Below, one piece after another: positions 1,034-62,708 of a stretch of 64,000 nt of DNA (position 1 is the stretch's first letter; every line of letters begins with the position of its first letter). Under the pieces are notes generated by a model. It saw only the letters and a program-made list of their open reading frames with translations. It was not told the DNA's origin and did not search any database. Source of the DNA: Candidatus Pacearchaeota archaeon (lineage in GTDB: Archaea; Nanobdellota; Nanobdellia; Pacearchaeales; GW2011-AR1); assembly GCA_016204145.1 (NCBI GenBank), contig JACQLK010000016.1:9181-73180 (forward strand), in the 5' to 3' direction. The position numbers and the translations under genes were made by a program.

Positions 1034-1636
1034 ATGAATAAAGAATTGTTGATTAATGCGGTCATGTCAAGAAATCCGAAAAAAATTTTAAACAAGACCG
1101 AATGTTACGCTCTTTACGAATCCGGATTTTTTGGAAACAAGGCGCGGACATGGAATTCATACGAAGAAATTTTGAAAAGCGAATGGAAAGGCGGAGTTTG
1201 TATGCGTTCAAAAAAAGGGGTCTCAAGAAAAGAAGTCAGATACAATATTAAAATTGAAGATGTTCCGTTGCACATTGAACATTTCCAAAAGATTGGAATC
1301 CCGGAAGACATGATTTCATTCAACCAAAGCATGCCTGACAGAAATTTAATTTTGCAGGGGGAAGTCATGAACTATCAGGGAGGGATTTACCTTTTTGGAA
1401 CAATCCTTAAAAAACCGATGAATATCGCGCTGGCGGAAAAAAGCTTCATCCTTGAAAATGATGCGGCGGGACCGCTTCTTGAAAGCAGATTGAGCGCAGA
1501 GAGTTGTCGGGATTTGCAAAATCTCCTCGAAGTTTTCCCGGAGAGCGTCGTTGAATTCAGCGCATACTCTATTCCCGTCGGAAATCTCGCGGAAACGGGA
1601 AGGAACACCGTATTTTGGGAAGTGAGGAATTATTAA
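1034..1636 (+). CDS. hypothetical protein
   Basis: 200-aa ORF, no recognisable motif. Confidence 0.35.
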   Translation: MNKELLINAVMSRNPKKILNKTECYALYESGFFGNKARTWNSYEEILKSEWKGGVCMRSKKGVSRKEVRYNIKIEDVPLHIEHFQKIGIPEDMISFNQSMPDRNLILQGEVMNYQGGIYLFGTILKKPMNIALAEKSFILENDAAGPLLESRLSAESCRDLQNLLEVFPESVVEFSAYSIPVGNLAETGRNTVFWEVRNY

Positions 1637-1773
1637 TAAAAATTCTAGAAAGTAAAGTTTGTTGCTTCGCAAAATTCAGAGATTAGATTAATTCTGCCAA
1701 ATTTCTCGCTGAGAAAAAATTTAATCCAAAAAGAGTTTATCGCATCATCTATATCGTCATCGGTAATTTTTAT

Positions 1774-1836
1774 CACATTAATCTTCCCTTGGCGTAGCAC
1801 CTTAACGGAGTTTGGTGCGGAGCAATAAATATCCGA
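1774..1836. repeat. ~60-nt conserved motif (copy 1 of 2, inverted relative to 52752..52795)
   Basis: reverse complement gatatttattgctccgcaccaaactccgttaaggtgctacgcc matches 52752..52795 gatatttattgctccgcgcctgactccgtcgtggtgctccgc. Confidence 0.45.
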
Positions 1837-1983
1837 ACGAAGTGAAGCAAATTTTTTAATGGAATAAGTTTTGTTGTCAAATCAAATTTGTTTTCTTGGG
1901 ACGGGCCGGCAATTTCGCATCCCTTCGGTAAAAATAATTATGATTAAAATAAATTATCCTATCGTTATAGCGTCGGTTTTGCC

Positions 1984-2096
1984 AGTTAACATTGGCTTGT
2001 TGGAAGGGTGGGCGGGTGGGAACGAACCCAGGCGGGATTGGCGGTGGGATAAACAAAATGAGGGGTTGCGAGTAGTGAGCTGTGGACGGTGGGAGA
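1984..2096 (+). repeat. G-rich intergenic repeat, copy A (GTTAACA module + perfect G4 motif GGGTGGGCGGGTGGG at 2006..2020)
   Basis: agttaacattgg..gggtgggcgggtggg..ggcggg..ggtggg..gaggggttgcgag; G-rich island in AT-rich intergenic DNA, shares modules with copies at 12245, 18628, 24059, 29609, 30993, 42698, 52699, 52856, 54389, 62603. Confidence 0.6.
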
Positions 2097-2118
2097 GAAA
2101 AAATATTTTGGAATAAAT

Positions 2119-2814
2119 CTATTTTGTTCTGACCAGTTGCTCAAGCATTTTCTGTCCTTCAGGCAAACTCTTAGGAACAAATATTCTAAAATCAAAATCT
2201 TCAGGAAAATGTCCCCCTATTTCCAGATTTCCTCCTCCTGCAAAAAGACGTCCGTCATAGTCAACCCCGTCGTAATAATGGTCTGAAGTATAAGATCTTG
2301 GATTTAATCCCGCACTTACCTTAAAAATTTCATATCTTCCTCCTTCAACAAATTTCCCTACAGATTCTTTTAACTTTTTCATTTGCTCTTCTCCATTAAA
2401 TCCTTCAAAATAAACCATCTGAAATCTTTCCCTTGAAAAATTTGCCGGGTTGGATTCCAATTCATATGCTTCGGGTATAACTCCTCCATGCTGATCTTTT
2501 ATGTACCTAATATTTTTAACTCTTGGTTCTCGGTCTCCGCCATTAAAATCAAGACTATAATGGGGAATGATATTTTTATTCAAAATTCTTGAAAGATAAT
2601 TCCTATATTTGTCAAAATTTTTTTTGAAAGTTTGCTCGTCCATCCTTGAGAATTCAGATCTTTCCTTCCAGAACATTTCCATTTCTGGAACTTCCAAATA
2701 AACATTTGCTGCGACTCCTTTGTCAGAAAGTAAATTCGTTACAAGAAATCTTAGAAATTCGCTTCCTCCTGAATATTTATACTTGAATTCTTTCCAAGGT
2801 TCTTTTTGTGCCAT
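2119..2814 (-). CDS. hypothetical protein
   Basis: 231-aa ORF, Gly-rich C-terminus (GGGNLEIGGHFPEDFDF), no confident family. Confidence 0.4.
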   Translation of the reverse strand: MAQKEPWKEFKYKYSGGSEFLRFLVTNLLSDKGVAANVYLEVPEMEMFWKERSEFSRMDEQTFKKNFDKYRNYLSRILNKNIIPHYSLDFNGGDREPRVKNIRYIKDQHGGVIPEAYELESNPANFSRERFQMVYFEGFNGEEQMKKLKESVGKFVEGGRYEIFKVSAGLNPRSYTSDHYYDGVDYDGRLFAGGGNLEIGGHFPEDFDFRIFVPKSLPEGQKMLEQLVRTK

Positions 2815-12244: not shown

Positions 12245-12294
12245 ATGGGGGATTGTAAGTTAAAATTTATTTCTGTTTCCGTGGGGCGGGCGGG
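12245..12294 (+). repeat. G-rich intergenic repeat, copy B
   Basis: tgggggattgtaagttaaaatttatttctgtttccgtggggcgggcggg; ~70 nt upstream of NAC start; shares gattgtRRgttaaaatttRttt with copy J. Confidence 0.55.
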
Positions 12295-12364
12295 AAAGAA
12301 ACAAGAGAGTTAAAAAAATATTTCCAACAGAAAACCATAAAAACCTTTTTAATTTTCCTTTAAA

Positions 12365-18627: not shown

Positions 18628-18660
18628 TTTGCGCGGGGAGGAGCAACACAGGGGTGATGA
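18628..18660 (+). repeat. G-rich intergenic repeat, copy I (degenerate)
   Basis: ttttgcgcggggaggagcaacacaggggtgatg. Confidence 0.4.
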
Positions 18661-19891: not shown

Positions 19892-22612
19892 TTACCCCAA
19901 GCTCTCCTCGATTATCTTAATCTCATCTGAAGTCAAACCGTAGAGTTTGTAAACCTCGGCGTCGATTTCATAGTCAATGTTTTTTATCTGTTGTTCCAAT
20001 CTTTCTTTTTCATTTCCGGAAACGCCGGAGTCGTGATTTTTCTTTTGAATCTCAAGCATTTCATTGACGAGGGAAATGATTTTTTGTTGTTGGGGAGGAG
20101 AAACTTTCGGAATAATTATTCTTTCAGTAACGGGATTATCAAATTGCATTGTTCTTATCGCTTTTCCAAAAATAAATCTATAGGCGTACCAATTAGTTAG
20201 TTTTGAGTTAATTATCGCAATTAAGAATTCTGAAGAAAATTTATTCTTATTTTGAAGTTGATTAATTGTATCCACAATTATATAATCATTAATTTTTAAA
20301 TCATTAGATAAAGAAGCTGTTATTTTTATATGGTCAATTGGATTCTCAATGTGTGCTACTATTCTCTGAACCAAAATAGAATTTTGTTTGATAAACGCTT
20401 TTTCATCTTTAACAACTTTTTTAGATATATACCCTTTAACATCTGAAGAAATAACATATCTTCCAATTTGCATACCTCCTAAAACCATTAAATCAGATTT
20501 TTTATCTGTAACTTCTTTTTGGTAAATAGCTCCTCGCCGATTAATAATTAAATCATTTAACGAAACCCCAGAATTTTTTATTTTTCTTCCGACGTTTAAT
20601 TCTTTATCAGAAATTCCATTCAGCAAAAATCCAAACTCTTTGAAAGTTTCTTTGTTTATCTTTCCAACACATTTAATTTCTTGGTTGTCTCTTACACAAG
20701 AATTATAAAATTTTTCACTCTTATTTTTATTATAAAAATAAATAACTTGTTCAAGTTTTACTTCTTTCCAAACTTTTCCTACGTCAACAACTTCTTTTAA
20801 ACCTTGCAAAAGTTTTTCTCTTATTTCTTCCCAAGTTGAAGAATAAACAAATGGTTTAGGAATAATAAACCCATTAATTCCTTTAGAATTTAATAAATCA
20901 ACTGCAAGAGACATAAACAAACAAGCCGTATCAGTATTTCCTAATTTAAACTTCTTTTCTAATAATTCTCTATCCTTCTCTGGCAAATCCGCACCATACG
21001 GCGGATTCCCGACGACAACGTCAAATCCTCCGTTTCTGAAAACATCAGGGAACTGCGCGTTCCAATTAAACGCCTTGTCTCCCGCTACTTTTGAATCGTC
21101 AATCAAGGAGTTTCAGTTTTTTATGTTATTTTTCAAATTAGGAAGCAAAAGCTTTCTCGTCTCCCTTGTTTCTCCTTCAAGAAGTTTCAGCAGCAAATTC
21201 AACTGCGCCAGCTCAACCGCCTTCTCGTCCAAGTCAACGCCGTAAACGCATCTTGAAAGAATTGTGATTTTTTGCGCCAAATTCAACCTGTCCTCGTAAT
21301 TTTTAAAAGTTGAATTTTTGCTTTTGTCTCCTCTCTTCATTTTTTCCTCAACAGCATCGCAAACCTCCTGAAACGCGCGAATCAAAAAACTTCCGGAGCC
21401 GCAGGCAGGGTCAACTATTCTGACTTCCAATATTTCGTCAATGGATTTATCTTTTACATATTCTCCGACAGTATTTTTGACGATGTAATCCACAATGTAA
21501 GAGGGAGTGTAGTAAATTCCCATCTTTTTTCTTTTTCCGCTTTCGGAATCCAACTTTACTCTTTGTTCTGTTCCCCTCAAAACAACGCCGAGGTATTGCT
21601 CATATATGCTCCCGAGCAAATCGCCGGGAATCTCGTCAAACATATATCGCGACTGCTTATTTTCCACGCCAAAATAAAGAATTTTTATTATTTTTTCCAA
21701 ATTCTCATCATCTAAAAAAATATTTTTCTCATCTTCAAGTATTCCCGAAGAAAATAATTTTGAATTGTATGATTTGTCAAAAATCTTGAACTGTTCATCC
21801 AATGCAGGCCACAATTTCACCTTTAATCGGCCTTCTCGTGAATCCTTGACAAGTCCAAGCAAAAAATTCTGATTCTCCAATCCCCTGTCTTCGGCGGAGC
21901 GCATAAAAATCAACCTATCAATTAAAATCTGTATCGCCTCGTCTATCTGCTCGTCTGTCAGATAATTCCTTAATTTCTTCAAATCGTTGGAGAGCAATCT
22001 TCTTATTTCAAGCAAATCGGCTAAAATGCTTTCGTCAACCGGGACAAATTGCTTTTCGTCTTTTTTTGATAAAAGTTTATTTATTTCTTGTTTTTCAAAA
22101 CTTTCCCTTGAAATAAGCCACAACTTGTCAAATTCTTTTTCAAAATCCTTAAACTCAAGCCAGAATAATAAATTCTTGTCTATGTTTTTTATATTTGAAA
22201 GCGCGTGATAAACCCTGAAATATTTAAAATTAGTAAGAACCGAAAATTTTATTTTCCTGTGGTAGGCGTAAGAAACCGCCTGTCTTCCCTCGTCTTCCGA
22301 TAAAGAAACATTTGTTTTTTTCGCCTCAACAACCAAGCTTTCCTGATTTCCGATTCTTAAAATATAATCCGCCCTTCCTTTAAGCACTCTTTTTTCTTTT
22401 GAAATATCTTCCCTATTCCAGCCCAATGCTTCAAACAGCGGCTCAATGAATTGAAATTTTATATCTTCCTCAGGCATTGAATCCAATTCGCTCTTTGATT
22501 TCAGCGAAAATTTGCGGACTATCTTTTCTACTTCTAATTTCGCTTCTTCCTTAGTTGTCATTTTATATTTTTTTGAAAAGCACCTCCGCCTTCTTAATTT
22601 TATTCGTCTCAA
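19892..22612 (-). pseudogene. Type IIG restriction-modification fusion enzyme (PD-(D/E)xK nuclease + gamma-class N6-adenine methyltransferase + TRD) interrupted by one in-frame TGA at 21113..21115
   Basis: N-terminal GRADYILRIGNQESLVVEAKK (D..E.K nuclease motif), motif I VDPACGSGSFL, then TGA, then in the same frame motif IV VVGNPPYG; listed halves 21113..22612 and 19892..21106 are separated by only two codons. Confidence 0.7.
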
Positions 22613-24058: not shown

Positions 24059-24100
24059 AGTTAACATTTGTTTTTGCGGGGCGGGGAGTTTCGGATGGGA
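24059..24100 (+). repeat. G-rich intergenic repeat, copy C
   Basis: agttaacatttgtttttgcggggcggggagtttcggatggga, ~110 nt upstream of the MetRS start. Confidence 0.5.
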
Positions 24101-24557: not shown

Positions 24558-24727
24558 GCGGCTTTGGTCTAATGGCATGACGTCACCTTCCCATGGCACT
24601 TTTCACTGAAGGTGAAAAAGGCATAAGCGGAATTCGCAAGAATTCTGGCTACGAGCATTTTTTCAGAAAATGCGGAAATGATTCTCGGAAAAAGGTGGCT
24701 GCGCGGGTTCGATTCCCGCAAGCCGCA
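24558..24727 (+). tRNA. intron-containing tRNA, anticodon probably CCC (Gly); ~98-nt intron at canonical 37/38 position (approx 24594..24691)
   Basis: acceptor GCGGCTT/AAGCCGC, T-arm GCGGG-TTCGATT-CCCGC, anticodon stem TCACC/GGTGG only pairs across a ~98-nt insert; intron contains cGGAATTCgcaaGAATTCtg hairpin with GNRA loop. Confidence 0.6.
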
Positions 24728-29471: not shown

Positions 29472-29608
29472 AATAATTTTGCGCGGGAATTGTTGAAATA
29501 TGTTAATGTAAAATTATAATAAAAATATTAATATTATCGCGTCGGTTTTGCATTAACATCGGTCTCTAAGAGAAGGTAGGCGGAATAAATTTGAAAAATC
29601 AAAATTTG

Positions 29609-29670
29609 ATTGTGGGTTAAAATTTGTTTTGAACCGGGATTTTTGGCGGCGGGACAAAACTTATAAATTA
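29609..29670 (+). repeat. G-rich intergenic repeat, copy J (with TATA-like ttataaatta)
   Basis: gattgtgggttaaaatttgttttgaaccgggatttttggcggcgggacaaaacttataaatta, ends 10 nt before surface-protein ATG. Confidence 0.45.
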
Positions 29671-29679
29671 TAGTTCTTA

Positions 29680-30909
29680 ATGAATGAAATGAAAAGAGGT
29701 TTGAACGTTCTCGTTTTAGTTGCATTTTTGCTCGCGTTTCAAATTGTTCCCGTTTCCGCAGACCCTTCTTTTTCCCCGTCATCATTTTCAATCAGCCCGG
29801 GACAAAATTCATCTTTTACAATTACGATAACAAATCCAGACACTTACGCGGACACGGGATTGGCAACAAACATTACAAGAGTAAACATTACTCTTCCTTC
29901 AAGCGTTGTTTTTGTCAGCGGGACGGAAAGCACCGACTCCGCCTCGGCATTTTCAGCGACTGCAAATGTTTTGTCATGGGACAATTCTTCTTATGTCATC
30001 GGCTCATCGACAGGGGGAGACAACGTGAAAACGTTTTCATTTGTCGCAAACGCAACAACTTTGGGAATCCTCGCAATTGTCGTGAGAACAATGAACTCGA
30101 CGACGACAACGACAAAAAATATTTCCCTCACTGTCTCGGACTCTGTCGCTCCGCAAGTAACGCTCGTCAGCCCGGAGAACAACAATGAAGATGCCGACGG
30201 GGTTCTCGTATTCAGCTGCAACGCAACAGACAACCTCGCGCTAAACTCAATGAAACTTGCAATTTACTTCAACGACAGCGAAACATACGGCAACAGCATA
30301 AGCGTAAACGGAACGGCAAGCAATCAGTCAAGTTGGGATTACACATTTAACTCAAACGGAGAATACAAATGGAACTGCTTCGCAAACGACACCGCGGGAA
30401 ATTCCGCATGGGCTTCAAACAGAACGATAAAAATAGACGCGCTTTCATTGTCGGCGCAGGCATGCGCCTCAAACTGGACATGCGCTAACTGGAGCGTTTG
30501 TTCAAACGGAACTCAAACAAGAACTTGCACTGATGCAAACTCCTGCGGAAACGTAACTGGAAAGCCGGCTGAAACGCAAACGTGCACTCCCCCTTGCGCT
30601 TCGTCGTGGAAATGCGCCGATTGGACCCCCGCAAAATGTCCAAAAGATGGAAAACAAACAAGAACTTGCACGGATGCAAACGCGTGCGGCGACTTGTCGG
30701 GAAAACCGTCTGAATCCCTGACTTGCGAATACAAAAGTTCAATTGGAATTTTTGTCGCCGCGGGAATAATCCTTGCTCTGATAGCGGGCAGTGTCGGAGC
30801 GTTTTTTTATCTGAGGAAAAACAAAGTCGATGAATTGTATCCGCAATCAACTGAAAACGCAAACCAAAATTATCCGCAAAATCAGGGATATAATTTCGAA
30901 TATTCTTGA
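29680..30909 (+). CDS. surface/cell-envelope protein: signal peptide, N-glycosylation sequon-rich region, two tandem 6-Cys modules, C-terminal TM anchor
   Basis: signal MNEMKRGLNVLVLVAFLLAFQIVPVSA; tandem CASNWTCANWSVCSNGTQTRTCTDANSCG / CASSWKCADWTPAKCPKDGKQTRTCTDANACG; C-terminal IGIFVAAGIILALIAGSVGAFFYLRKN. Confidence 0.6.
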   Translation: MNEMKRGLNVLVLVAFLLAFQIVPVSADPSFSPSSFSISPGQNSSFTITITNPDTYADTGLATNITRVNITLPSSVVFVSGTESTDSASAFSATANVLSWDNSSYVIGSSTGGDNVKTFSFVANATTLGILAIVVRTMNSTTTTTKNISLTVSDSVAPQVTLVSPENNNEDADGVLVFSCNATDNLALNSMKLAIYFNDSETYGNSISVNGTASNQSSWDYTFNSNGEYKWNCFANDTAGNSAWASNRTIKIDALSLSAQACASNWTCANWSVCSNGTQTRTCTDANSCGNVTGKPAETQTCTPPCASSWKCADWTPAKCPKDGKQTRTCTDANACGDLSGKPSESLTCEYKSSIGIFVAAGIILALIAGSVGAFFYLRKNKVDELYPQSTENANQNYPQNQGYNFEYS

Positions 30910-30992: not shown

Positions 30993-31040
30993 GTTAACAT
31001 TGGTTTCCGGGGGTGGGCGAGTTAGGGGACTTGGCGATGG
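30993..31040 (+). repeat. G-rich intergenic repeat, copy D
   Basis: gttaacattggtttccgggggtgggcgagttaggggacttggcgatgg, ~100 nt upstream of TBP. Confidence 0.55.
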
Positions 31041-31141: not shown

Positions 31142-31708
31142 ATGTCCGGAAAAAATTCCGCAAGCGCGTACCAAATCCAAAACATCGTCGCCACAACGTC
31201 CCTTGAAAAACCGGTTCCTCTTGTAAAACTCGCAAGAACCCAGCCAAACACGGAGTACAATCCAAAGACATTTCCCGGTTTGGTTTTAAGGGTAAAGGAG
31301 CCGAAATCGGCGGTTCTCGTATTCTCATCCGGAAACCTTGTCTGCACCGGAACAAAATCAATCGCCCAAGTGAAACAGGTCATTGACGTTGTCATAAAGC
31401 AATTGAGAAAAATAAACGTGAACGTCACCATAAAACCGAAGATAACGGTGCAAAACATCGTCGCTTCCGGAACGATAAATTTGAAATTGAACCTTAATTT
31501 TCTTGCGATTGAAATGGAAAACACGGAATACGAGCCGGAACAATTTCCGGGATTGGTTTACAAGCTGAACGAGCCGAACGCGACTTTTCTTTTGTTCAGC
31601 AACGGAAAACTCGTTTGCACCGGAACAAAAAACCGCCAACAATTGGAAGACAGCATGGACCAGCTTTTGAAAAACGTCAAAACCGCGCTGAAAAATTACA
31701 AGGGATGA
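31142..31708 (+). CDS. tbp: TATA-box binding protein
   Basis: two direct repeats each with NIVAT/S..L and LVCTGTK signature; ends with TGA stop. Confidence 0.95.
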   Translation: MSGKNSASAYQIQNIVATTSLEKPVPLVKLARTQPNTEYNPKTFPGLVLRVKEPKSAVLVFSSGNLVCTGTKSIAQVKQVIDVVIKQLRKINVNVTIKPKITVQNIVASGTINLKLNLNFLAIEMENTEYEPEQFPGLVYKLNEPNATFLLFSNGKLVCTGTKNRQQLEDSMDQLLKNVKTALKNYKG

Positions 31709-33400: not shown

Positions 33401-33472
33401 TGGTCCTGCGAGGAATTGAACCTCGGTCTCATCCACGTCAAGGACGCGTCTTAGCCGTTGGACTACAGGACC
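33401..33472 (-). tRNA. tRNA-Val (anticodon GAC)
   Basis: hand-folded: acceptor GGTCCTG/CAGGACC, anticodon stem CGTCC/GGATG loop TTGACGT, T-arm CGAGG-TTCAATT-CCTCG, 72 nt. Confidence 0.9.
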
Positions 33473-37999: not shown

Positions 38000-38219
38000 T
38001 TTAATTTAACTGGAAAAAGCAGCTTCGCAATAATGATTGCTCAATATGGGAAGAAAATTAATTGCAAAAAGCATAATGACGCTGAACGGATTTAACATTA
38101 ATTTCCGTTTCCGCAGGACGGAAATCTTTTTGCGGGATTAAAATTTTCCAAGTAGATTGGAGGAGCGATTTCAGAAAAAATATTTAAACTTCTTTAGGTT
38201 GTTATAAAAAAGGGGTAAA

Positions 38220-38987: not shown

Positions 38988-39211
38988 TGTGCTCTGAACT
39001 TCCCAGGGGAGATTCTTTGCCGATTTTAAAAAAGATTAATGCAATAAAAATTTTCCGAAGATTATATAAGATGATGGCGCGATGAGTTCTTTTGAATATT
39101 AAAACGATTTTATCATCTCACAATTTCTTTCTGATTTTTGACCGTGAGCAACTTGCCAAACAATTGAAATTTATGATGTATTTTATCTTTTGGCGCTCCG
39201 TGTTGGATAGT

Positions 39212-39735
39212 GAAAAACCCCATGGCAAGACCATAGGGCATCAGAAAAAATCCATTAATGCTAACTGACTATTTTTTCTTCCTTGATTTTTTATGTAATT
39301 TCTGATTATCTCCGCGTTGATTCCTTCACCTACTGTGCTGACGTAACCACAATCCCTCCAAAACTCTCCGCCCCACAAGTCCTTTTTCAGTTCAGGATAT
39401 TGTTCAAATAGTTTTCTGGCAGTTATGCTTTTCACAATTCTGAAAAGCTGAGATGGGGAATATTTCGGAACGGACTGAAGCAGGAAGTGAACATAATCCT
39501 CGTCAAATCCAATCGTTTCAAGATTCATCGTGTATCTTTTTTGCATTTCTTCGCAGATGGTTTTGAAAGTTTCTGTATATTTTTTCTGCAAGAACAAATC
39601 TTTTCTATATTTTATGACAAAGACAAAGTGATACTTTATTCTGAAAACTTTATGATATGATTTGAAAAGTTCATCCATGCAGAAGTTACGTTCTACAAAC
39701 TTATAGGTTTATCCCTGTGCCAAGAGCACAGGGTA
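39212..39735. mobile_element. IS200/IS605-family insertion sequence (TnpA only) with subterminal hairpins
   Basis: TnpA ORF flanked by hairpins ccccatggcaagaccataggg (39217..39238) and ccctgtgccaagagcacaggg (~39712..39732). Confidence 0.7.
39241..39678 (-). CDS. tnpA: IS200/IS605 Y1 transposase TnpA
   Basis: YHFVFVIKYRK, HuH motif YVHFLL, catalytic Y in GYVSTVG region, 145 aa. Confidence 0.85.
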   Translation of the reverse strand: MDELFKSYHKVFRIKYHFVFVIKYRKDLFLQKKYTETFKTICEEMQKRYTMNLETIGFDEDYVHFLLQSVPKYSPSQLFRIVKSITARKLFEQYPELKKDLWGGEFWRDCGYVSTVGEGINAEIIRNYIKNQGRKNSQLALMDFF

Positions 39736-39937: not shown

Positions 39938-41155
39938 ATGAAGCAAAAAATCCGCGTTCTTGTCGCGATGTCGGGCGGCGTTGATTCTTCCGTTGCAGCG
40001 CTGATGATGAAGAAAAACGGCTTTGACGTGCTCGGCGTTTTCATGAAAAATTACTCCGACACAAAAAATGAACTCGGGGAATGCAGTTGGAAAGACGAAA
40101 GAAAAATGGCGATGAAGATTTGTTCTTTGCTTGGAATTCCCCTAATCACTCTGGACTTTGAAAAACAATACAAAAAACAAGTCATTGAAAAAATGTTCCG
40201 CGATTACAAAAAAGGAATAACTCCCAATCCAGACATTGATTGCAACCGGAAAATAAAATTCCCGTTGCTGATAAAGGCGATGAAAAAACTCAGAGCTAAA
40301 TATATTGTGACAGGACATTATTCAAGAATAAAGAAAACAAAAAATAATCTAAGATTGTTTCGCGCGCGCGACGAAATGAAAGATCAAAGTTATTTTCTTT
40401 ATCGCCTTAATCAAAATGAGTTAAAGCACCTGAAATTCCCGATTGGCGATTTCACAAAAAAACAAGTTCGCGAGATTGCAAGAAAAAATAATTTCCCTAA
40501 TTTCGACAAGAAATCTACGGTCGGAATCTGTTTTGTCGGAAAAGTAAATTTAAAAAGATTTCTTCAGAAAAAAATAAAGCCGAAGAAGGGAAAAATCATC
40601 TCTCCCGACGGAAAAGTCATCGGAGAGCATGACGGAATTTATTATTACACAATCGGACAACGCCTCGGCTCAAGATACGGGATAAACATCTCAAAGGACA
40701 CCGATGACAAACGGTTTTTGAAAAGATGGTATGTCGCAAGAAAAGACGCGAAAACAAACGCAATAATCGCCGCGCCGGAAAATCATCCGCTGCTTTTCAG
40801 AAAAGAAATTTTCATAAAAAACACGCATTGGATAAATAAAGATGAAATTGAAAAATTGATTTCTTCCGGTGAAAGGACTGGTTCAAAATCAAAAATCAGG
40901 AAAATATTTGCGAACGAAGTAAGCAACAATTTTGGGGAGGGCGGTCGGGGGATTGGCGGAGGGATTAATGAAAAAAATTTCAATGTCCTCGCGCGAATCC
41001 GCCAAGTCGGAGAATTGCTTCCGTGCAAAATTATTTTTGGAAAAAAAATAAAAGTTGCTCTCAAAAAACCAATTACCGGCGTCAGCGAAGGTCAAGCAAT
41101 AGTTATTTACAAAGGAAAAGAAGTTTTAGGCGGAGGAGAAATTTGTTTTAATTAA
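39938..41155 (+). CDS. mnmA: tRNA 2-thiouridylase MnmA
   Basis: PP-loop VAMSGGVDSS, catalytic Cys region GICFVG; 405 aa with Gly-rich insertion GEGGRGIGGGI. Confidence 0.85.
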   Translation: MKQKIRVLVAMSGGVDSSVAALMMKKNGFDVLGVFMKNYSDTKNELGECSWKDERKMAMKICSLLGIPLITLDFEKQYKKQVIEKMFRDYKKGITPNPDIDCNRKIKFPLLIKAMKKLRAKYIVTGHYSRIKKTKNNLRLFRARDEMKDQSYFLYRLNQNELKHLKFPIGDFTKKQVREIARKNNFPNFDKKSTVGICFVGKVNLKRFLQKKIKPKKGKIISPDGKVIGEHDGIYYYTIGQRLGSRYGINISKDTDDKRFLKRWYVARKDAKTNAIIAAPENHPLLFRKEIFIKNTHWINKDEIEKLISSGERTGSKSKIRKIFANEVSNNFGEGGRGIGGGINEKNFNVLARIRQVGELLPCKIIFGKKIKVALKKPITGVSEGQAIVIYKGKEVLGGGEICFN

Positions 41156-42536: not shown

Positions 42537-42697
42537 TTTAATATCCTTGTTAAGATTTTGAGAAATCTGCCACAATTATTTGAAAAAGGGTTGATGTAAA
42601 TCCGCATTCTGGACATTAATGGAAAAGATTGTTAGTCGGCGCGAATTTGATAGGACTATGCTGGCAACAATTTTATGACCGATTAAACGTGGTTGGA

Positions 42698-42800
42698 TAT
42701 TCACGTCTGTTTCCGCGGGGCGGACGGCGGGCAACTTTGCGAGACAAAATTGCAAAACTCACAACGAGCGAAGTTGCGAGTTAGGGGATTGGAGGAAGGA
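42698..42800 (+). repeat. G-rich intergenic repeat, copy E (G-run + ~70-nt ttGCGAG module)
   Basis: tgtttccgcggggcggacggcgggcaactttgcgagacaaaattgcaaaactcacaacgagcgaagttgcgagttaggggattggaggaagg; ~90% identical to module in copy F. Confidence 0.6.
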
Positions 42801-47034: not shown

Positions 47035-47820
47035 ATGGAAGACGTGGAAAGATTTTTCAGGCAAATCAGGAAGGCGAGAAACGACATAAAAGTCGACAGA
47101 AAGAATTTTTGGAGCAAGAACAGGATAAATTTCAAGAATAACATAAAAACCCTTGTCTCGTTTTTCAAGTTTCCGGACGGCTGGACTGTAAATGTCATCG
47201 CCTCGTCGTTTTTATTGGACAAACCGTCGATGCCTTATGACAAGGATATCTGGAGTTTCTCAGACGTTGTCGCCGCGACAGAAAACCAGGGACACGACAT
47301 TATCCTGTTTTTCAACAAAGGCGACTTGGAGTTTCTTTCAGCTCCCGCGCTTCTCCCAATCATAGTCCATGAAGTGAGGCACATTTACCAAGCGGCTGAA
47401 AATCCGAAAAAATACGTGCAAGCAACTGTAAACGACGAGTTAAGCCGCGAGTATGAAACGGGCGCCGACGCTGAAGTAAGAAAATACAGCGACGAATTTC
47501 GCAGGGAAAATGTCCTTGAAAAAATAATGTTCTGCTATGACGAACGCGGATGGAACGGCGCGAAAAAAATGGCCGACTACCTTCACATGGAAGCGCAGGA
47601 CTCTTTCGGCGGCGGATACGACCAATCAATGAACAAGGAAGAATACGAAACGTTCCTGAAAGCGATGGAAGAAAGAGACATAGACCTTTTCGTCGACTAT
47701 TTCATAAAAAGCATAGGCGGAGAAGAAGCCCAAAAAGAAGGTCAGGAAGTAAAAAAATTCGTCAGGGAATCAAAAATAAAAAAATTCATAAAAAACATCG
47801 TCGCAAAAAAGTCGGCTTGA
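47035..47820 (+). CDS. hypothetical protein with HExxH motif (possible Zn metallopeptidase)
   Basis: IIVHEVRHIYQAAE; its last ~15 codons and 3' flank are duplicated at 50706..50793. Confidence 0.45.
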   Translation: MEDVERFFRQIRKARNDIKVDRKNFWSKNRINFKNNIKTLVSFFKFPDGWTVNVIASSFLLDKPSMPYDKDIWSFSDVVAATENQGHDIILFFNKGDLEFLSAPALLPIIVHEVRHIYQAAENPKKYVQATVNDELSREYETGADAEVRKYSDEFRRENVLEKIMFCYDERGWNGAKKMADYLHMEAQDSFGGGYDQSMNKEEYETFLKAMEERDIDLFVDYFIKSIGGEEAQKEGQEVKKFVRESKIKKFIKNIVAKKSA

Positions 47821-47866
47821 GATGATTATGTTTTGTAAATGAGCCATTGAGGAATTCCGAGAAGTT
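47781..47866 (+). repeat. left direct repeat (~90 nt) bounding a 2.9-kb island
   Basis: aaaattcataaaaaacatcgtcgcaaaaaagtcggcttgagatg...gtaaatgagccattgaggaattccgagaag, ~85% identical to 50706..50793. Confidence 0.7.
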
Positions 47867-50602: not shown

Positions 50603-50705
50603 ATTATTAATTCGTTTATTTTCGCCTTAATTATCCCTAATTTCACAGCCACGCCGCTCAATAAACTTCTTCAGATAATTTTCGCAAAAAAAATTATCGC
50701 GAGAA

Positions 50706-50793
50706 AAAATTCATAAAAAACATCGTCGCAAAAAAGACGGCGTGAGATGGAAATCAATTTTGGTAAATAAGCCGTTGAGGAATTTCGGGAAAG
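50706..50793 (+). repeat. right direct repeat bounding the 2.9-kb island; contains a remnant of the 47035..47820 C-terminal coding tail
   Basis: aaaattcataaaaaacatcgtcgcaaaaaagacggcgtgagatg... would encode KKFIKNIVAKKTA* like the end of 47035..47820 (KKFIKNIVAKKSA*). Confidence 0.7.
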
Positions 50794-52622: not shown

Positions 52623-52698
52623 GATTTTATCAGGAAACGAGATTTTTTTAAGGTTTGGGTTTATAATTTTAAAAGAAATCTTCTATGAAGTATTTTGT

Positions 52699-52712
52699 TC
52701 CCGCCCGCCTCC
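52699..52712 (-). repeat. G-rich repeat, copy K (reverse orientation, C-rich on + strand)
   Basis: cccgcccgcctcc; revcomp ggaggcgggcgggaaca resembles copy H ggaggc..gggcgggcgggatgaaca; ~80 nt upstream of FtsY start. Confidence 0.45.
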
Positions 52713-52751
52713 TATGAAACCTTAATAATCTCTAAAATTTGCTTTCGCTTC

Positions 52752-52795
52752 GTTCAGATATTTATTGCTCCGCGCCTGACTCCGTCGTGGTGCTC
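52752..52795 (+). repeat. ~60-nt conserved motif (copy 2 of 2; partner at 1774..1836)
   Basis: gatatttattgctccgcgcctgactccgtcgtggtgctccgc. Confidence 0.45.
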
Positions 52796-52855
52796 CGCTA
52801 AAGAAAAATACTAATGTGAAAACTCTGTCTTATCATCATATCGTCGCATCATCAT

Positions 52856-52976
52856 TCTTTCTCCTGGGGGCGGGGACAAATTTATCAAGTAAATTTTTGG
52901 AACGCGAGTAGGCGAGCAACTTTGCGAGACAGAATTGCAAAACTCACAACGAGCGGGGTTGCGAGTCGGGGAATTG
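52856..52976 (+). repeat. G-rich intergenic repeat, copy F (most complete: G-run + BRE/TATA-like module + ttGCGAG module)
   Basis: cctgggggcggggacaaatttatcaagtaaatttttggaacgcgagtaggcgagcaactttgcgagacagaattgcaaaactcacaacgagcggggttgcgagtcggggaattggaggaag. Confidence 0.65.
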
Positions 52977-53040
52977 GAGGAAGAATGATCCAATAAGTTA
53001 AATCTAAATTTTTATAAACAACAGTTGTTTTTGCTTTTCC

Positions 53041-54291: not shown

Positions 54292-54388
54292 TTTTTGATT
54301 TATCAGTAAACTTCGTAAGAATTATTAAAAAGAGGTTAGTGTAAAATAACTTCAAGTCACTCCTAATCATATTCAATTCGGATTTGGA

Positions 54389-54480
54389 GTTAACACGGGT
54401 TTCGCGGGGAGGGAGGGTGGGGACAAATTTATCAAGTAAATTTTTGGAACGCGGGCGGTCGGGAATTACTCGCGGAATTT
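54389..54480 (+). repeat. G-rich intergenic repeat, copy G (GTTAACA + perfect G4 GGGGAGGGAGGGTGGGG at 54406..54422 + BRE/TATA-like module)
   Basis: gttaacacgggtttcgcggggagggagggtggggacaaatttatcaagtaaatttttggaacgcgggcggtcggg; 38 nt identical to copy F. Confidence 0.65.
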
Positions 54481-62602: not shown

Positions 62603-62630
62603 CGGAGGCAAATTTCGGGGGGCGGGCGGG
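62603..62630 (+). repeat. G-rich intergenic repeat, copy H
   Basis: ggaggcaaatttcggggggcgggcggg. Confidence 0.45.
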
Positions 62631-62708
62631 ATGAACAAAAAATGCCCCGAATTGCTTTTTAAAAATTCTAAATTTCATTTCCGTGCCGTTTAAATTCTTT
62701 CTTGAAAT

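What the first reader, a model, noticed from the sequence alone, without database searches (positions are those of the whole stretch)
1984..2096. Copy A carries a textbook G-quadruplex motif (GGGTGGGCGGGTGGG) plus three further G-runs
2006..2020 is G3-T-G3-C-G3-T-G3, four G-triplets with single-nucleotide loops, which is the most stable class of intramolecular G4. It is followed by ggcggg, ggcggtggg, gagggg and gacggtggg within 80 nt. The element lies in the 480-nt spacer between the 3' ends of two convergent genes, so it cannot be a promoter for either. It may act as a terminator or roadblock, or mark an unannotated + strand transcript.
Basis: seen in the sequence. Interest (0 to 1): 0.55.

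Follow-up and report, generated by a model that had tools for sequence, protein, structure and literature searches.

The report
Strand-polarised G-string repeat family in Pacearchaeota
The G-quadruplex motif is real, but it is one four-tract variant of a short G-rich core that ends a repeated, one-strand-only intergenic DNA element found in a small group of tiny (DPANN) archaea; what that element does is not known.

Summary
Observation confirmed. GGGTGGGCGGGTGGG lies at 2006-2020 (+) in the 482-nt spacer between convergent genes (1034-1636 +, 2119-2814 -). It is one of only two canonical G4 motifs in the 64 kb, and both are intergenic.

It is not a stand-alone motif. It is the '(GGGN)n G-string' of a modular repeat unit: TGAAAAA-GTTAATGTAAA-N14-ATTAATG-N10-15-GTTAACATTGG, a T-rich linker, the G-string, then an optional G/A-rich tail. 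A sequence model places its 11 best hits in the window all on the + strand, whatever the direction of the neighbouring genes and against the local base skew.

The commonest core is GGGGCGGGCGGG, with three tracts, so it is not a G4 on its own. That core occupies the orthologous spacer in two relatives (76-77% identity in the flanking protein). The elements fill most of the long spacers of an otherwise very compact genome. They are gained and lost between close relatives. They have no dedicated promoter, no RNA fold, no Rfam match and no terminal inverted repeats.

Best reading: an accessory, DNA-level repeat family of a Pacearchaeota subclade. Copy A is an allele that happens to be able to form a G4. 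A terminator or roadblock role, or a small-RNA role, stays possible but untested.

The parts
2006..2020 (+). G-string of copy A: GGGTGGGCGGGTGGG. Four G3 tracts with 1-nt loops, the four-tract allele of the family core (GGGN)n.
1985..2005 (+). Box 3 (GTTAACATTGG) plus a pyrimidine-rich linker (CTTGTTGGAA), immediately 5' of the G-string.
   Evidence: Exact GTTAACATTGG also at 30993; 1-mismatch copies at 24060 and 54389, each upstream of a G-string.
1925..1984 (+). Degenerate head of unit A2, homologous to the box1-box2 region of unit D. GCGTCGGTTTTGC(C)A is shared with 29534-29551.
   Evidence: read from the sequence
2021..2094 (+). G/A-rich tail of copy A. GGGATTGGCGGTGGGAT (2034-2050) is shared with 40949-40965. 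TTGCGAG(TAG) (2066-2075) is shared with units H, K and the unit in L007.
2095..2118 (.). A6/T4 stretch (GAGAAAAAATATTTTGG). On the - strand it reads as a T6 run just 3' of the stop codon of gene 2119-2814, so it is probably that gene's oligo-T terminator rather than part of the element.
   Evidence: Sequence. The same arrangement occurs in L013 and L042.
1884..1909 (+). Second, decayed unit (A1) in the same spacer: AAATTTGTTTTCTT-GGGACGGGCCGG.
   Evidence: Model hit with E 0.024, not in the training set.
1781..1856 (+). X module, a co-occurring repeat with a 5-bp hairpin (GCACC...GGTGC). It also occurs inverted at 52734-52809 and in L038 and L013.
   Evidence: One compensatory change is seen (GAACC/GGTTC in L038).
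12267..12301 (+). Unit B, with the exact core GGGGCGGGCGGG. It lies in a 218-nt insertion between Sec61beta and NAC.
   Evidence: the two genes are adjacent in L042/L043 and L040
24060..24091 (+). Unit C (GTTAACATTTGTTTTTGCGGGGCGGGG), between two - strand genes.
29502..29660 (+). Units D1/D2, with the full head GTTAATGTAAA-N14-ATTAAT. The orthologous spacers in L007 and L010 carry 1-3 units.
30993..31040 (+). Unit E, upstream of TBP. It is present at the same site in L042 and absent in L007/L008 and L040.
38098..38121 (+). Unit G (decayed).
   Evidence: E 0.25
40930..40972 (+). G-rich stretch inside the MnmA gene, in frame, resembling the tail of copy A.
42590..42800 (+). Unit H: head, GGGGCGGACGGCGGG, and a tail carrying a TTGCGAG hairpin. 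It lies between convergent genes.
52866..52985 (+). Unit K (GGGGGCGGGG plus a tail 90% identical to that of H over 73 nt).
52693..52711 (-). The only convincing minus-strand core (GGAGGCGGGCGGG), preceded by an X module on that strand.
54335..54470 (+). Unit J: full head plus GGGGAGGGAGGGTGGGG, the second canonical G4 motif of the window.
62612..62637 (+). Unit M (AAATTTC-GGGGGGCGGGCGGG-ATGAAC), between convergent genes. Its junctions match those of the unit in L013.
18629..18660 (+). Unit N (decayed core). It lies at the site orthologous to the GGGTGGGTGGGCGG unit of L042, before the tRNA_bind gene.

Best explanation
Copy A is one member of a lineage-restricted family of modular, non-coding repeat units in a subclade of Pacearchaeota (DPANN archaea).

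A unit has three parts:
- A head of three AT-rich palindrome-like boxes, each 20-25 nt from the next: TGAAAAA-GTTAATGTAAA-N14-ATTAATG-N10-15-GTTAACATTGG.
- A short T/C-rich linker followed by a microsatellite-like G-string, (GGGN)3-5, whose commonest form is GGGGCGGGCGGG.
- Often a G/A-rich tail carrying TTGCGAG and GATTGG[AC]GG motifs.

The 15-mer at 2006-2020 is a four-tract allele of that G-string, plausibly produced by slippage of the GGGN unit. That is why it meets the G4 rule while most copies, including the orthologues of copy A, do not.

Shown here: the elements are accessory DNA. They account for most long spacers in a genome whose genes otherwise abut. They are gained and lost between close relatives, yet the G-string persists at orthologous spacers while the rest of the spacer is scrambled. 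They sit almost always on one DNA strand, independently of gene direction and against the local compositional skew.

Inferred: they act, or are propagated, at the DNA level. The head plus G-string would be a polar recognition platform for a protein not yet identified. The uniform orientation would be imposed by replication direction, either through the way copies arise or through selection that keeps the G4-prone strand off the lagging-strand template.

They are not genes, promoters of the neighbouring genes, hairpin terminators or structured RNAs. G4 folding is possible for copy A, but it is not the property the family conserves.
For: Family and polarity:
- A sequence-only model run with filters off puts its 11 best window hits (E <= 0.27) all on the + strand. 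Three of these were not in the training set.
- The core GGGGCGGGCGGG with up to 2 mismatches gives 12 hits against 1.43 expected, 11 on + and 1 on -.
- Every member in syntenic relatives has the same orientation.
- Gene context is mixed: 4 convergent, about 5 tandem +, 2-3 tandem - and 1 divergent.

Conserved head: seven units from three species are colinear.

Orthology:
- The spacer between the genes orthologous to 1034-1636 and 2119-2814 carries one GGGGCGGGCGGG, in the same orientation, in L013 and in L011/L012. These relatives are 76-77% identical in the 231-aa protein. The spacers measure 220, 585 and 482 nt and are otherwise scrambled.
- The E site and the N site are shared with L042, whose MCM is 83% identical.

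Gain and loss:
- Unit B sits in a 218-nt insertion between Sec61beta and NAC, which are adjacent in L042/L043 and in L040.
- Unit E is absent in L007/L008 and L040. In the window it is flanked by a 10-nt direct repeat.
- L007 has a unit beside tRNA-Val where the window has none.
- The family is absent from about 67 kb of more distant relatives, and a motif scan of viral contigs found no match.

Not an RNA or a promoter:
- Fold z-scores for copy A are -0.34 (+ strand) and +0.91 (- strand); six other units score -0.04 to -1.99.
- Rfam gives nothing.
- The genome's own TATA matrix starts 30-34 nt before the ATG in about half of the upstream regions used, consistent with mostly leaderless mRNAs. 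It finds no site at a fixed distance from the G-strings, and none within 130 nt of copy A.

Against the skew: at third codon positions the + strand is C>G and A>T once the gene-sense effect is removed. 59% of coding bases are on the - strand. The IS200-like tnpA gene (39241-39678) lies on the - strand. This is inferred to be the orientation expected if - is the lagging-strand template, from recalled work on IS200/IS605 elements; it was not tested here.
Against: - No protein partner, transcript or mobilisation mechanism has been identified.
- There are no terminal inverted repeats beyond chance. There is no consistent target-site duplication and no shared termini between the B and E blocks, so this is not a canonical transposon.
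- Copies are mosaic rather than uniformly similar.
- The replication direction is inferred only from codon-position skew in a single 64-kb window. No origin or skew switch was seen, so the link between polarity and replication is untested.
- Persistence of the exact 12-mer across species could reflect host-level function, which would make 'accessory' too weak, or gene conversion among copies.
- All relatives are syntenic, so their shared orientation is not independent evidence.
- The p-values for T/A asymmetry treat related copies as independent.
Confidence: 0.45

Rival explanations
1. Transcription boundary or roadblock. The GC-rich G-string is approached by a T-rich stretch on either strand. 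It would stall archaeal RNA polymerase on an oligo-T tract, either as G4/non-B DNA on the template strand or as a duplex that is hard to melt. This would reinforce termination and insulate neighbouring transcription units in both directions.
For: - The location is always intergenic.
- T>A in the 20 nt upstream of the G-string (166:96) and A>T in the 25 nt downstream (212:147). Each strand therefore reads T-rich and then the GC block.
- In copy A, L013, L042 (15.6 kb), H and M, a T5-6 run on the - strand lies 3-10 nt before the C-string, within about 10-80 nt of the stop codon of a - strand gene.
- Two independent short-read assemblies of this organism break exactly at 2006-2020. This would fit poor read coverage or assembly across this tract.
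Against: - Eight convergent gene pairs in the window have spacers of 0-20 nt and no element.
- Relative L040 has none at all in 21 kb, so the element is dispensable for termination.
- The A-runs are more frequent when a - strand gene lies to the right, so they look like that gene's own terminator rather than part of the unit.
- A boundary function does not predict a single strand orientation or conservation of an exact 12-mer.
- Several units sit directly upstream of promoters (D2 lies 8 nt from the TATA box).
Confidence: 0.17
2. Family of small non-coding RNA genes, or read-through RNA elements, transcribed from the + strand. They would give purine-rich, G-string-containing RNAs of about 60-130 nt starting near GTTAACATT. 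These RNAs would act by pairing with pyrimidine-rich targets or by forming RNA G4s.
For: - The conserved colinear head could be a specialised promoter: box 2 (ATTAAT) lies 33-42 nt before the G-string.
- A pyrimidine-purine step occurs at the start of box 3.
- T-runs often follow within 20-40 nt.
- Unit E is a compact self-contained block with its own AT-rich upstream region.
- GC-rich islands in an AT-rich archaeal genome are classically RNA genes (general knowledge).
Against: - No match to the genome's own BRE/TATA matrix occurs at a fixed distance, and there is none near copy A.
- No stable or covarying secondary structure was found and there is no Rfam hit.
- The box 3 to G-string spacing varies from 15 to 24 nt.
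- Many copies are decayed.
- Transcription from + would run head-on to the inferred replication direction in 11 of 11 cases. That is the opposite of what is usual for expressed genes.
Confidence: 0.15
3. Replication-oriented polar signal. The G-strings would be functional, sequence-specific or G4-forming sites read in one direction by the replication, repair or segregation machinery. Analogues would be KOPS, Chi or Ter sites, or dispersed single ORB-like Orc1/Cdc6 sites, which have a dyad plus a G-string.
For: - Polarity above 90% that is independent of genes.
- The exact 12-mer is conserved at orthologous and non-orthologous sites in at least four genomes.
- Density is about 1 per 5 kb.
- The orientation opposes the mutational skew.
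- Palindromic boxes followed by a G-string recall the ORB architecture (for the G-string concept).
Against: - The elements are strictly intergenic and embedded in 100-300-nt modular units, unlike KOPS or Chi.
- They are absent from L040, a relative with 76% MCM identity.
- Many copies are decayed.
- No orc1/cdc6 gene was found among the 30 window proteins scanned.
- There are no inverted pairs flanking an AT-rich unwinding region.
Confidence: 0.12
4. Classical miniature transposable element (MITE), or a REP-like element mobilised by the IS200-type Y1 transposase encoded at 39241-39678.
For: - Presence/absence polymorphisms at B, E and the L007 tRNA-Val spacer.
- A 10-nt direct repeat flanks E.
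- A Y1 transposase is present (Pfam 5.5e-32). From recalled literature (not checked here), this family inserts with a replication-linked orientation bias.
Against: - There are no terminal inverted repeats beyond chance.
- The transposase's own end hairpins (39218-39238 and 39713-39733) occur only twice and are unrelated to the units.
- The units contain no hairpin.
- E is shared with the more distant L042, so the direct repeat in the window is better read as the substrate of a deletion in L007.
- No near-identical full-length copies exist.
Confidence: 0.06

Closest known systems
Recurrent intergenic potential-G4 repeats (rPQS) of Methanomicrobiaceae (Chashchina et al. 2021, PMC8044849)
   Same: Both are interspersed, highly similar G-rich repeats in archaeal genomes. 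Both are strictly intergenic, many lie between tail-to-tail genes, and their orientation is unrelated to the neighbouring genes. The authors likewise conclude that function is more likely at the DNA level than the RNA level.
   Different: Those repeats carry a conserved 10-12-nt C-rich tract 3' of the PQS, giving a hairpin/triplex alternative, and they occur on both strands equally. Here there is no C-tract, most cores have only three G-tracts, there is a conserved AT-rich three-box head, and nearly all copies are on one strand. The host lineage is also unrelated (DPANN).
Modular bacterial intergenic repeats (BOX elements of Streptococcus pneumoniae, REP/BIME of enterobacteria)
   Same: Both are short, non-coding, mosaic units built from a few modules in variable combination. 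Both are confined to spacers, lineage-specific, and gained and lost between close relatives (comparison from general knowledge).
   Different: REP, BIME and BOX elements are built around palindromes or hairpins and occur in both orientations. These units have no hairpin, carry a G-string and show strand polarity. No RAYT-type partner was identified.
Archaeal origin recognition boxes (ORB: dyad element plus 'G-string', bound directionally by Orc1/Cdc6)
   Same: Both combine a short palindrome-like AT-rich element with a G-run a fixed short distance to one side, giving an intrinsically polar site (structure recalled from the literature).
   Different: ORBs are clustered in inverted orientation around an AT-rich unwinding element next to orc1/cdc6. 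These units are single, dispersed about every 5 kb, all in one orientation, and not next to an initiator gene.
Skewed G-rich polar oligomers (KOPS GGGNAGGG, Chi GCTGGTGG)
   Same: Both are G-rich, strongly strand-biased along a replichore, and occur at kilobase-scale density (general knowledge).
   Different: KOPS and Chi are bare 8-mers found mostly inside genes and co-oriented with the G-rich leading strand. Here the motif is embedded in long intergenic modules and runs against the local skew.

Membership tests
Canonical intramolecular G-quadruplex motif (PQS) | Four or more G3+ tracts separated by loops of 1-7 nt on one strand | tested here: met
   2006-2020 is GGGTGGGCGGGTGGG. The regex finds only this and 54397-54422 in the window.
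Canonical intramolecular G-quadruplex motif (PQS) | The G4-forming capacity is the conserved (selected) property across homologous copies | tested here: not met
   Orthologous spacers in L013 and L011 have the three-tract GGGGCGGGCGGG. Only about 5-6 of about 20 family cores have four or more tracts.
Canonical intramolecular G-quadruplex motif (PQS) | Actual folding into a G4 in K+ (CD, DMS footprint, polymerase stop) | not testable with these tools
   Only indirect: two short-read assemblies end at the motif.
Methanomicrobiaceae-type rPQS | PQS followed by a conserved 10-12-nt C-rich tract partly complementary to it | tested here: not met
   Downstream of the cores the sequence is A-rich (212 A against 147 T over the 25 nt after each core), with no C-tract.
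Methanomicrobiaceae-type rPQS | Interspersed, intergenic, orientation independent of the neighbouring genes | tested here: met
MITE / DNA transposon derivative | Terminal inverted repeats | tested here: not met
   Only a 13-nt, 12/13 AT-rich pair in the copy A spacer, about what chance gives. There are no shared termini between the B and E blocks (sequence comparison).
MITE / DNA transposon derivative | Target-site duplication at insertion polymorphisms | tested here: inconclusive
   E is flanked by ATATTC[T/C]TGA. However, E is also present in the more distant L042, so a deletion in L007 is the simpler reading. B is flanked only by TTTAA(G/A).
REP/RAYT or IS200/IS605-derived element | Imperfect palindrome (hairpin) recognised by a Y1 transposase | tested here: not met
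   The units have no hairpin. The hairpins of the IS occur only at its own two ends.
Archaeal ORB / replication origin | Two or more repeats in inverted orientation flanking an AT-rich unwinding element next to orc1/cdc6 | tested here: not met
   The units are single, dispersed and in one orientation. No Orc1/Cdc6 domain was found in the 30 window proteins scanned; not every ORF was scanned.
Small non-coding RNA gene | Own promoter at a fixed distance, conserved secondary structure or covariation, or a match to a known family | tested here: not met
   TATA-matrix scan; fold z-scores from -1.99 to +0.91; Rfam gives nothing.
Small non-coding RNA gene | Detectable discrete transcript | not testable with these tools
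   No expression data are available.
Intrinsic (hairpin plus U-run) terminator | GC-rich stem-loop followed by a T-run | tested here: not met
   0 sites in 1600-2200.

The most novel reading that the evidence does not exclude
The G-string units would be replication-polarised cis signals of a DPANN archaeal chromosome. They would be sequence-specific, partly G4-competent sites kept on one replication strand, read directionally by the replication, repair or segregation machinery or pausing it. That would be an archaeal counterpart of KOPS, Chi or Ter sites, or of dispersed single ORB sites. The number of GGGN units would toggle by slippage between states that can and cannot form a G4.
Probability: 0.12. 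Interest if true: 0.75.

Novelty: new variant of a known kind. Interest (0 to 1): 0.4.

Why it matters
DPANN archaea have some of the most compact genomes known. A non-coding element family that fills most of the long spacers and keeps a single strand orientation is therefore unexpected baggage. It means either that a selfish repeat with a strand-specific mode of spread is tolerated, or that a polar DNA signal is being used.

If orientation flips at the origin and terminus in closed genomes, these units would give a sequence marker of replication direction in organisms that cannot be cultured. They would also be a natural system in which G4-competent and G4-incompetent alleles of the same site can be compared.

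For annotation, the practical lesson is that the 'textbook G4' at this locus should not be read as a conserved G4 regulatory element.

Tried and rejected
- **Known RNA families.** Rfam at gathering thresholds on the whole window, and permissive scans of the copy A spacer, the K spacer and three relatives, found nothing relevant. There were only sub-threshold C/D-box-like noise hits on an ATGATGA-rich neighbouring module.
- **RNA folding.** Folding copy A on both strands and six other units gave no signal.
- **Coding potential.** The 81-aa ORF 1871-2116 over copy A was rejected. The spacer is scrambled in relatives, and other copies carry stop codons in every frame.
- **Short upstream ORF or Shine-Dalgarno idea** (GGAGG...ATG after some G-strings). 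This was rejected because it is inconsistent between copies and the genome's mRNAs appear mostly leaderless.
- **Fresh transposition of unit E.** This was first suggested by its absence in L007 and the 10-nt direct repeat. It was withdrawn once L042 showed a homologous unit at the same site.
- **REP-like derivative of the IS200-type element.** Rejected.
- **Split-tRNA style GC-rich complementary leaders.** Rejected, since 11 G-strings face a single complementary copy.
- **Concatenated-protein query.** An attempt to fetch several neighbourhoods in one search returned nothing and cost one of three searches.
- **Metagenome pattern scan.** It returned 26 loci, of which only 2 were family members. 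The rest were chance hits in GC-rich genomes. The viral scan found nothing.
- **ApgM-based genome scan.** It gave only relatives at 62-66% identity, which lack the family.
Full report
**1. The observation**

The + strand reads GGGTGGGCGGGTGGG at 2006-2020. It is followed by GGCGGG (2031-2036), GGCGGTGGG (2040-2048), GAGGGG (2060-2065) and GACGGTGGG (2085-2093). The stretch lies in the 482-nt spacer between the convergent ORFs 1034-1636 (+) and 2119-2814 (-).

It is far from a chance event:
- The 15-mer with up to 2 mismatches gives 2 hits against 0.02 expected.
- GGGNGGGNGGG gives 6 hits at 4 loci against 0.07 expected.
- A G4 regex finds only two canonical motifs in 64 kb (2006 and 54397). 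Both are intergenic and on the + strand.
- All G4Hunter peaks of 1.5 or more on the + strand lie in spacers, apart from one inside MnmA.

**2. The organism**

The window encodes TBP, RadA/B, MCM, GINS51, aIF2beta, FtsY, SRP54, NAC, an archaeal-type phosphoglycerate mutase, an archaeal RNA polymerase subunit L and intron-containing tRNAs. One protein of the window is 100% identical over 99% of its length to an NCBI entry from 'Candidatus Pacearchaeota archaeon'. The window is 39% G+C.

Genes are packed. Many neighbours overlap or are 0-50 nt apart. In about half of the upstream regions examined, a TATA-like motif (AAyTTTTAAA) starts 30-34 nt before the ATG, which suggests mostly leaderless mRNAs.

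**3. It is a repeat family**

Repeat finding and pairwise BLAST of the long spacers show a mosaic of shared modules. Lining the copies up gives a unit with three parts:
- A head: TGAAAAA-(A)TGTTAATGTAAA-N14-ATTAATG-N10-15-GTTAA(C/A)ATTGG.
- A T/C-rich linker (TTTCCG or TTTTTGC) and then a G-string.
- Often a G/A-rich tail with TTGCGAG and GATTGG[AC]GG motifs.

The G-string is a run of GGGN units. The commonest form is GGGGCGGGCGGG. It is exact at 12283 and 62619, and exact in three other genomes. With up to 2 mismatches there are 12 window hits against 1.43 expected.

Copy A (GGGT GGGC GGGT GGG), unit J (54406), the unit in L007 (GGGT GGGT GGGC GGG) and one unit of L042 (GGGGTGGGCGGGTGGG) are four- or five-tract versions. 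Most of the others have three tracts or are decayed. The G4 of copy A is therefore best seen as a length allele of a tetranucleotide-repeat-like core.

The copy A spacer holds several pieces:
- unit A2 (about 1925-2094);
- a decayed unit A1 (1884-1909, found by the model without having been trained on it; E 0.024);
- a separate module X (1781-1856) with a small hairpin that shows one compensatory change across species.

**4. Polarity**

A sequence-only covariance model of the core, run with filters off, places its 11 best hits (E <= 0.27) all on the + strand. The first minus-strand hits have E 0.58 (probably chance) and E 0.77, the latter an inverted unit in the FtsY/ApgM spacer.

The neighbouring genes are convergent (A, H, M, N), tandem + (B, D, E, G, J), tandem - (C, F, I) or divergent (K). 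Orientation is therefore unrelated to transcription of the neighbours.

At third codon positions the + strand is C>G (component -0.083) and A>T once the gene-sense effect is separated. In addition, 59% of coding bases are on the - strand. The single IS200-type tnpA gene lies on the - strand. I infer, from recalled work on IS200/IS605 elements that was not checked here, that this orientation is the one expected if the - strand is the lagging-strand template.

The G-strings thus run against the local compositional skew. If the usual skew rule holds, they sit on the leading-strand template. This last step is inference from one window, and no origin was seen.

**5. Comparison with relatives**

Copy A spacer:
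- Homologues of the 231-aa protein next to copy A led to two genomes at 76-77% identity.
- In both, the orthologous spacer carries one GGGGCGGGCGGG in the same orientation. The spacers are 220 nt in L013 and 585 nt in L011/L012.
- In L013 the G-string abuts the 3' end of the 231-aa gene, exactly as in the window.
- The rest of the spacer is scrambled, and some modules are inverted.

Spacer upstream of the 409-aa gene:
- It carries one to three units in L007/L008 (86% identity) and in L010 (80%), with different sequences but the same head.

L042 (MCM 83% identical):
- It has three units, all in the window's orientation. Two lie at sites orthologous to units E and N.

Turnover:
- Unit E is missing in L007/L008 and in L040. 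There, the stop codon of the upstream gene and the TBP promoter are contiguous. The window has a 10-nt direct repeat at the boundaries, which is best read as the substrate of a deletion.
- Unit B lies in a 218-nt insertion between Sec61beta and NAC. These two genes are 0-5 nt apart in both L042/L043 and L040, so B is a gain in the window lineage.
- L007 has a unit next to tRNA-Val where the window has none.

Distribution:
- The family is absent from L040 (MCM 76% identical) and from four Pacearchaeota/Woesearchaeota loci with ApgM 62-66% identical, about 67 kb in all.
- A strict pattern scan found two family loci in public metagenomes: L017, which is the same contig as L012, and one new member, L038. 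It found none in viral contigs.

**6. What it is not**

- **Not a structured RNA.** Fold z-scores for copy A are -0.34 and +0.91, and six other units score -0.04 to -1.99. Rfam finds nothing even at permissive thresholds.
- **Not an obvious independent gene.** The genome's own promoter matrix finds no site at a constant distance from the units on either strand, and none within 130 nt of copy A.
- **Not a hairpin terminator**.
- **Not a classical MITE.** It has no terminal inverted repeats beyond chance, no common termini and no near-identical full-length copies.
- **Not a derivative of the IS200-type element at 39241-39678.** That element's end hairpins occur only twice.
- **Not an origin.** The units are dispersed and co-oriented, and no Orc1/Cdc6 was found among the 30 proteins scanned.

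**7. How it most likely works**

Shown:
- The elements are accessory, lineage-specific, modular and polar.
- The G-string persists at orthologous sites while its surroundings turn over.

Inferred:
- The units act or propagate at the DNA level. The head has three RTTAAY boxes, each 20-25 nt from the next, followed by a directional G-string. That looks like a recognition platform for a protein rather than a transcript.
- The single orientation is imposed by replication. This could happen through a strand-specific way of copying the units. It could also happen through selection that removes copies whose G4-prone strand would be exposed on the lagging-strand template.

I put this composite reading at about 0.45.

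Each strand reads T-rich and then a GC block, and several copies lie a few nucleotides beyond the oligo-T run that follows a - strand gene. Three points weaken it:
- Eight convergent gene pairs have no spacer at all.
- The family is dispensable in a relative (L040).
- Polarity is left unexplained.

A family of G-rich small RNAs (about 0.15) and a true replication-polar signal (about 0.12) cannot be excluded without expression data and closed genomes.

**8. Comparison with what is known**

The closest published case is the recurrent intergenic PQS family of Methanomicrobiaceae (PMC8044849). It shares the intergenic, gene-independent placement and the conclusion that function lies at the DNA level. 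Those repeats, however, carry a 3' C-tract and occur equally on both strands.

In their modular mosaicism the units resemble BOX and BIME elements. In the arrangement 'palindrome plus G-string' they resemble ORBs. In their polarity they resemble KOPS and Chi. They fail the defining tests of each (see the membership table).

I therefore class the finding as a new variant of a known kind, recurrent G-rich intergenic repeats of archaea. Its distinctive traits are strand polarity, the three-box head and the GGGN-unit core.

**9. Verdict**

The motif is real and non-random. The simple reading 'conserved G4 regulatory element' is not supported, because the family conserves a three-tract core. Interest is moderate (0.4). 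A specialist would want to see the orientation map on a closed genome, which is a cheap and decisive test.

Noticed in passing
window 24558-24727 (+): Rfam tRNA hit (45.4 bits) spanning 170 nt, a tRNA gene with an intron of about 100 nt. ARAGORN did not call it.
   Followed up: no
L007 4283-4475 (-) versus window 33401-33472 (-): The tRNA-Val gene is uninterrupted in the window. In the relative with 86% protein identity it carries an insertion of about 125 nt (an intron), and ARAGORN fails to call it there. This is an intron presence/absence polymorphism between close relatives.
   Followed up: partly
window 39218-39733: Compact IS200-type element. The Y1 transposase gene lies at 39241-39678 (-) (Pfam Y1_Tnp, 5.5e-32). 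It is flanked by two similar hairpins, CCCCATGGCAAGACCATAGGG (39218-39238) and CCCTGTGCCAAGAGCACAGGG (39713-39733). No other copies of the hairpin occur in the window.
   Followed up: yes
window 40880-41000, inside MnmA (39938-41155 +): MnmA carries an in-frame insertion of about 38 aa (…SNNFGEGGRGIGGGINEKNF…) encoded by G-rich DNA resembling the tail of copy A (GGGATTGGCGGAGGGAT). A homologous Gly-rich insert is present in one relative (P0131) and a shorter one in another (P0130). It is absent from other MnmA sequences. P0162 has a different Gly-rich insert further downstream. This may be an ancient in-frame capture of element sequence.
   Followed up: partly
window 1781-1856 (+), 52734-52809 (inverted), L038 420-480, L013: Module X, a repeat of about 75 nt that co-occurs with G-string units in either relative orientation. 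It has a 5-bp hairpin (GCACC...GGTGC) with a conserved loop (GACTYYGT). One compensatory change is seen (GAACC/GGTTC in L038). It ends in GAGCGAAGC plus a T-run. It could be a small RNA or a DNA hairpin of its own.
   Followed up: partly
window 1722-1785 (-), 39033-39090 (+), 52821-52862 (-); L013 spacer: Another recurring module, AGATTAATG..ATAAAA..GATGATG(A/G)CGCGATAA. It is inverted between the window and L013. It gives only sub-threshold C/D-box snoRNA-like Rfam hits (E 0.45 and 2.2), and no D box is evident.
   Followed up: partly
L001 and L002 (Logan assemblies SRR12113383 and SRR12113430), corresponding to window 2006-2020: Two independent short-read assemblies of the same organism both end inside or at the G4 motif. 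One runs into a Nextera adapter sequence. This would fit poor coverage or assembly across this G-run.
   Followed up: partly
window 47779-47824 and 50704-50749 (+): A 46-nt direct repeat, 96% identical (AAAAAATTCATAAAAAACATCGTCGCAAAAAAG[T/A]CGGC[T/G]TGAGATG), with copies 2.9 kb apart. It is unrelated to the G-string family.
   Followed up: no
window 21113-22561 (-): The 482-aa ORF shows N6-adenine methyltransferase and MmeI-like/HSDR_N domains, so it is a restriction-modification-type gene in a very small genome. The ORF may be truncated or split, since MmeI-type enzymes are usually much longer.
   Followed up: no
window 30508-30585 / 30649-30726 and 31246-31357 / 31519-31630: These are internal direct repeats within coding sequence. 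The first pair is a tandem repeat inside the 409-aa lineage-specific protein. The second pair reflects the two halves of TBP. Both are ordinary.
   Followed up: no
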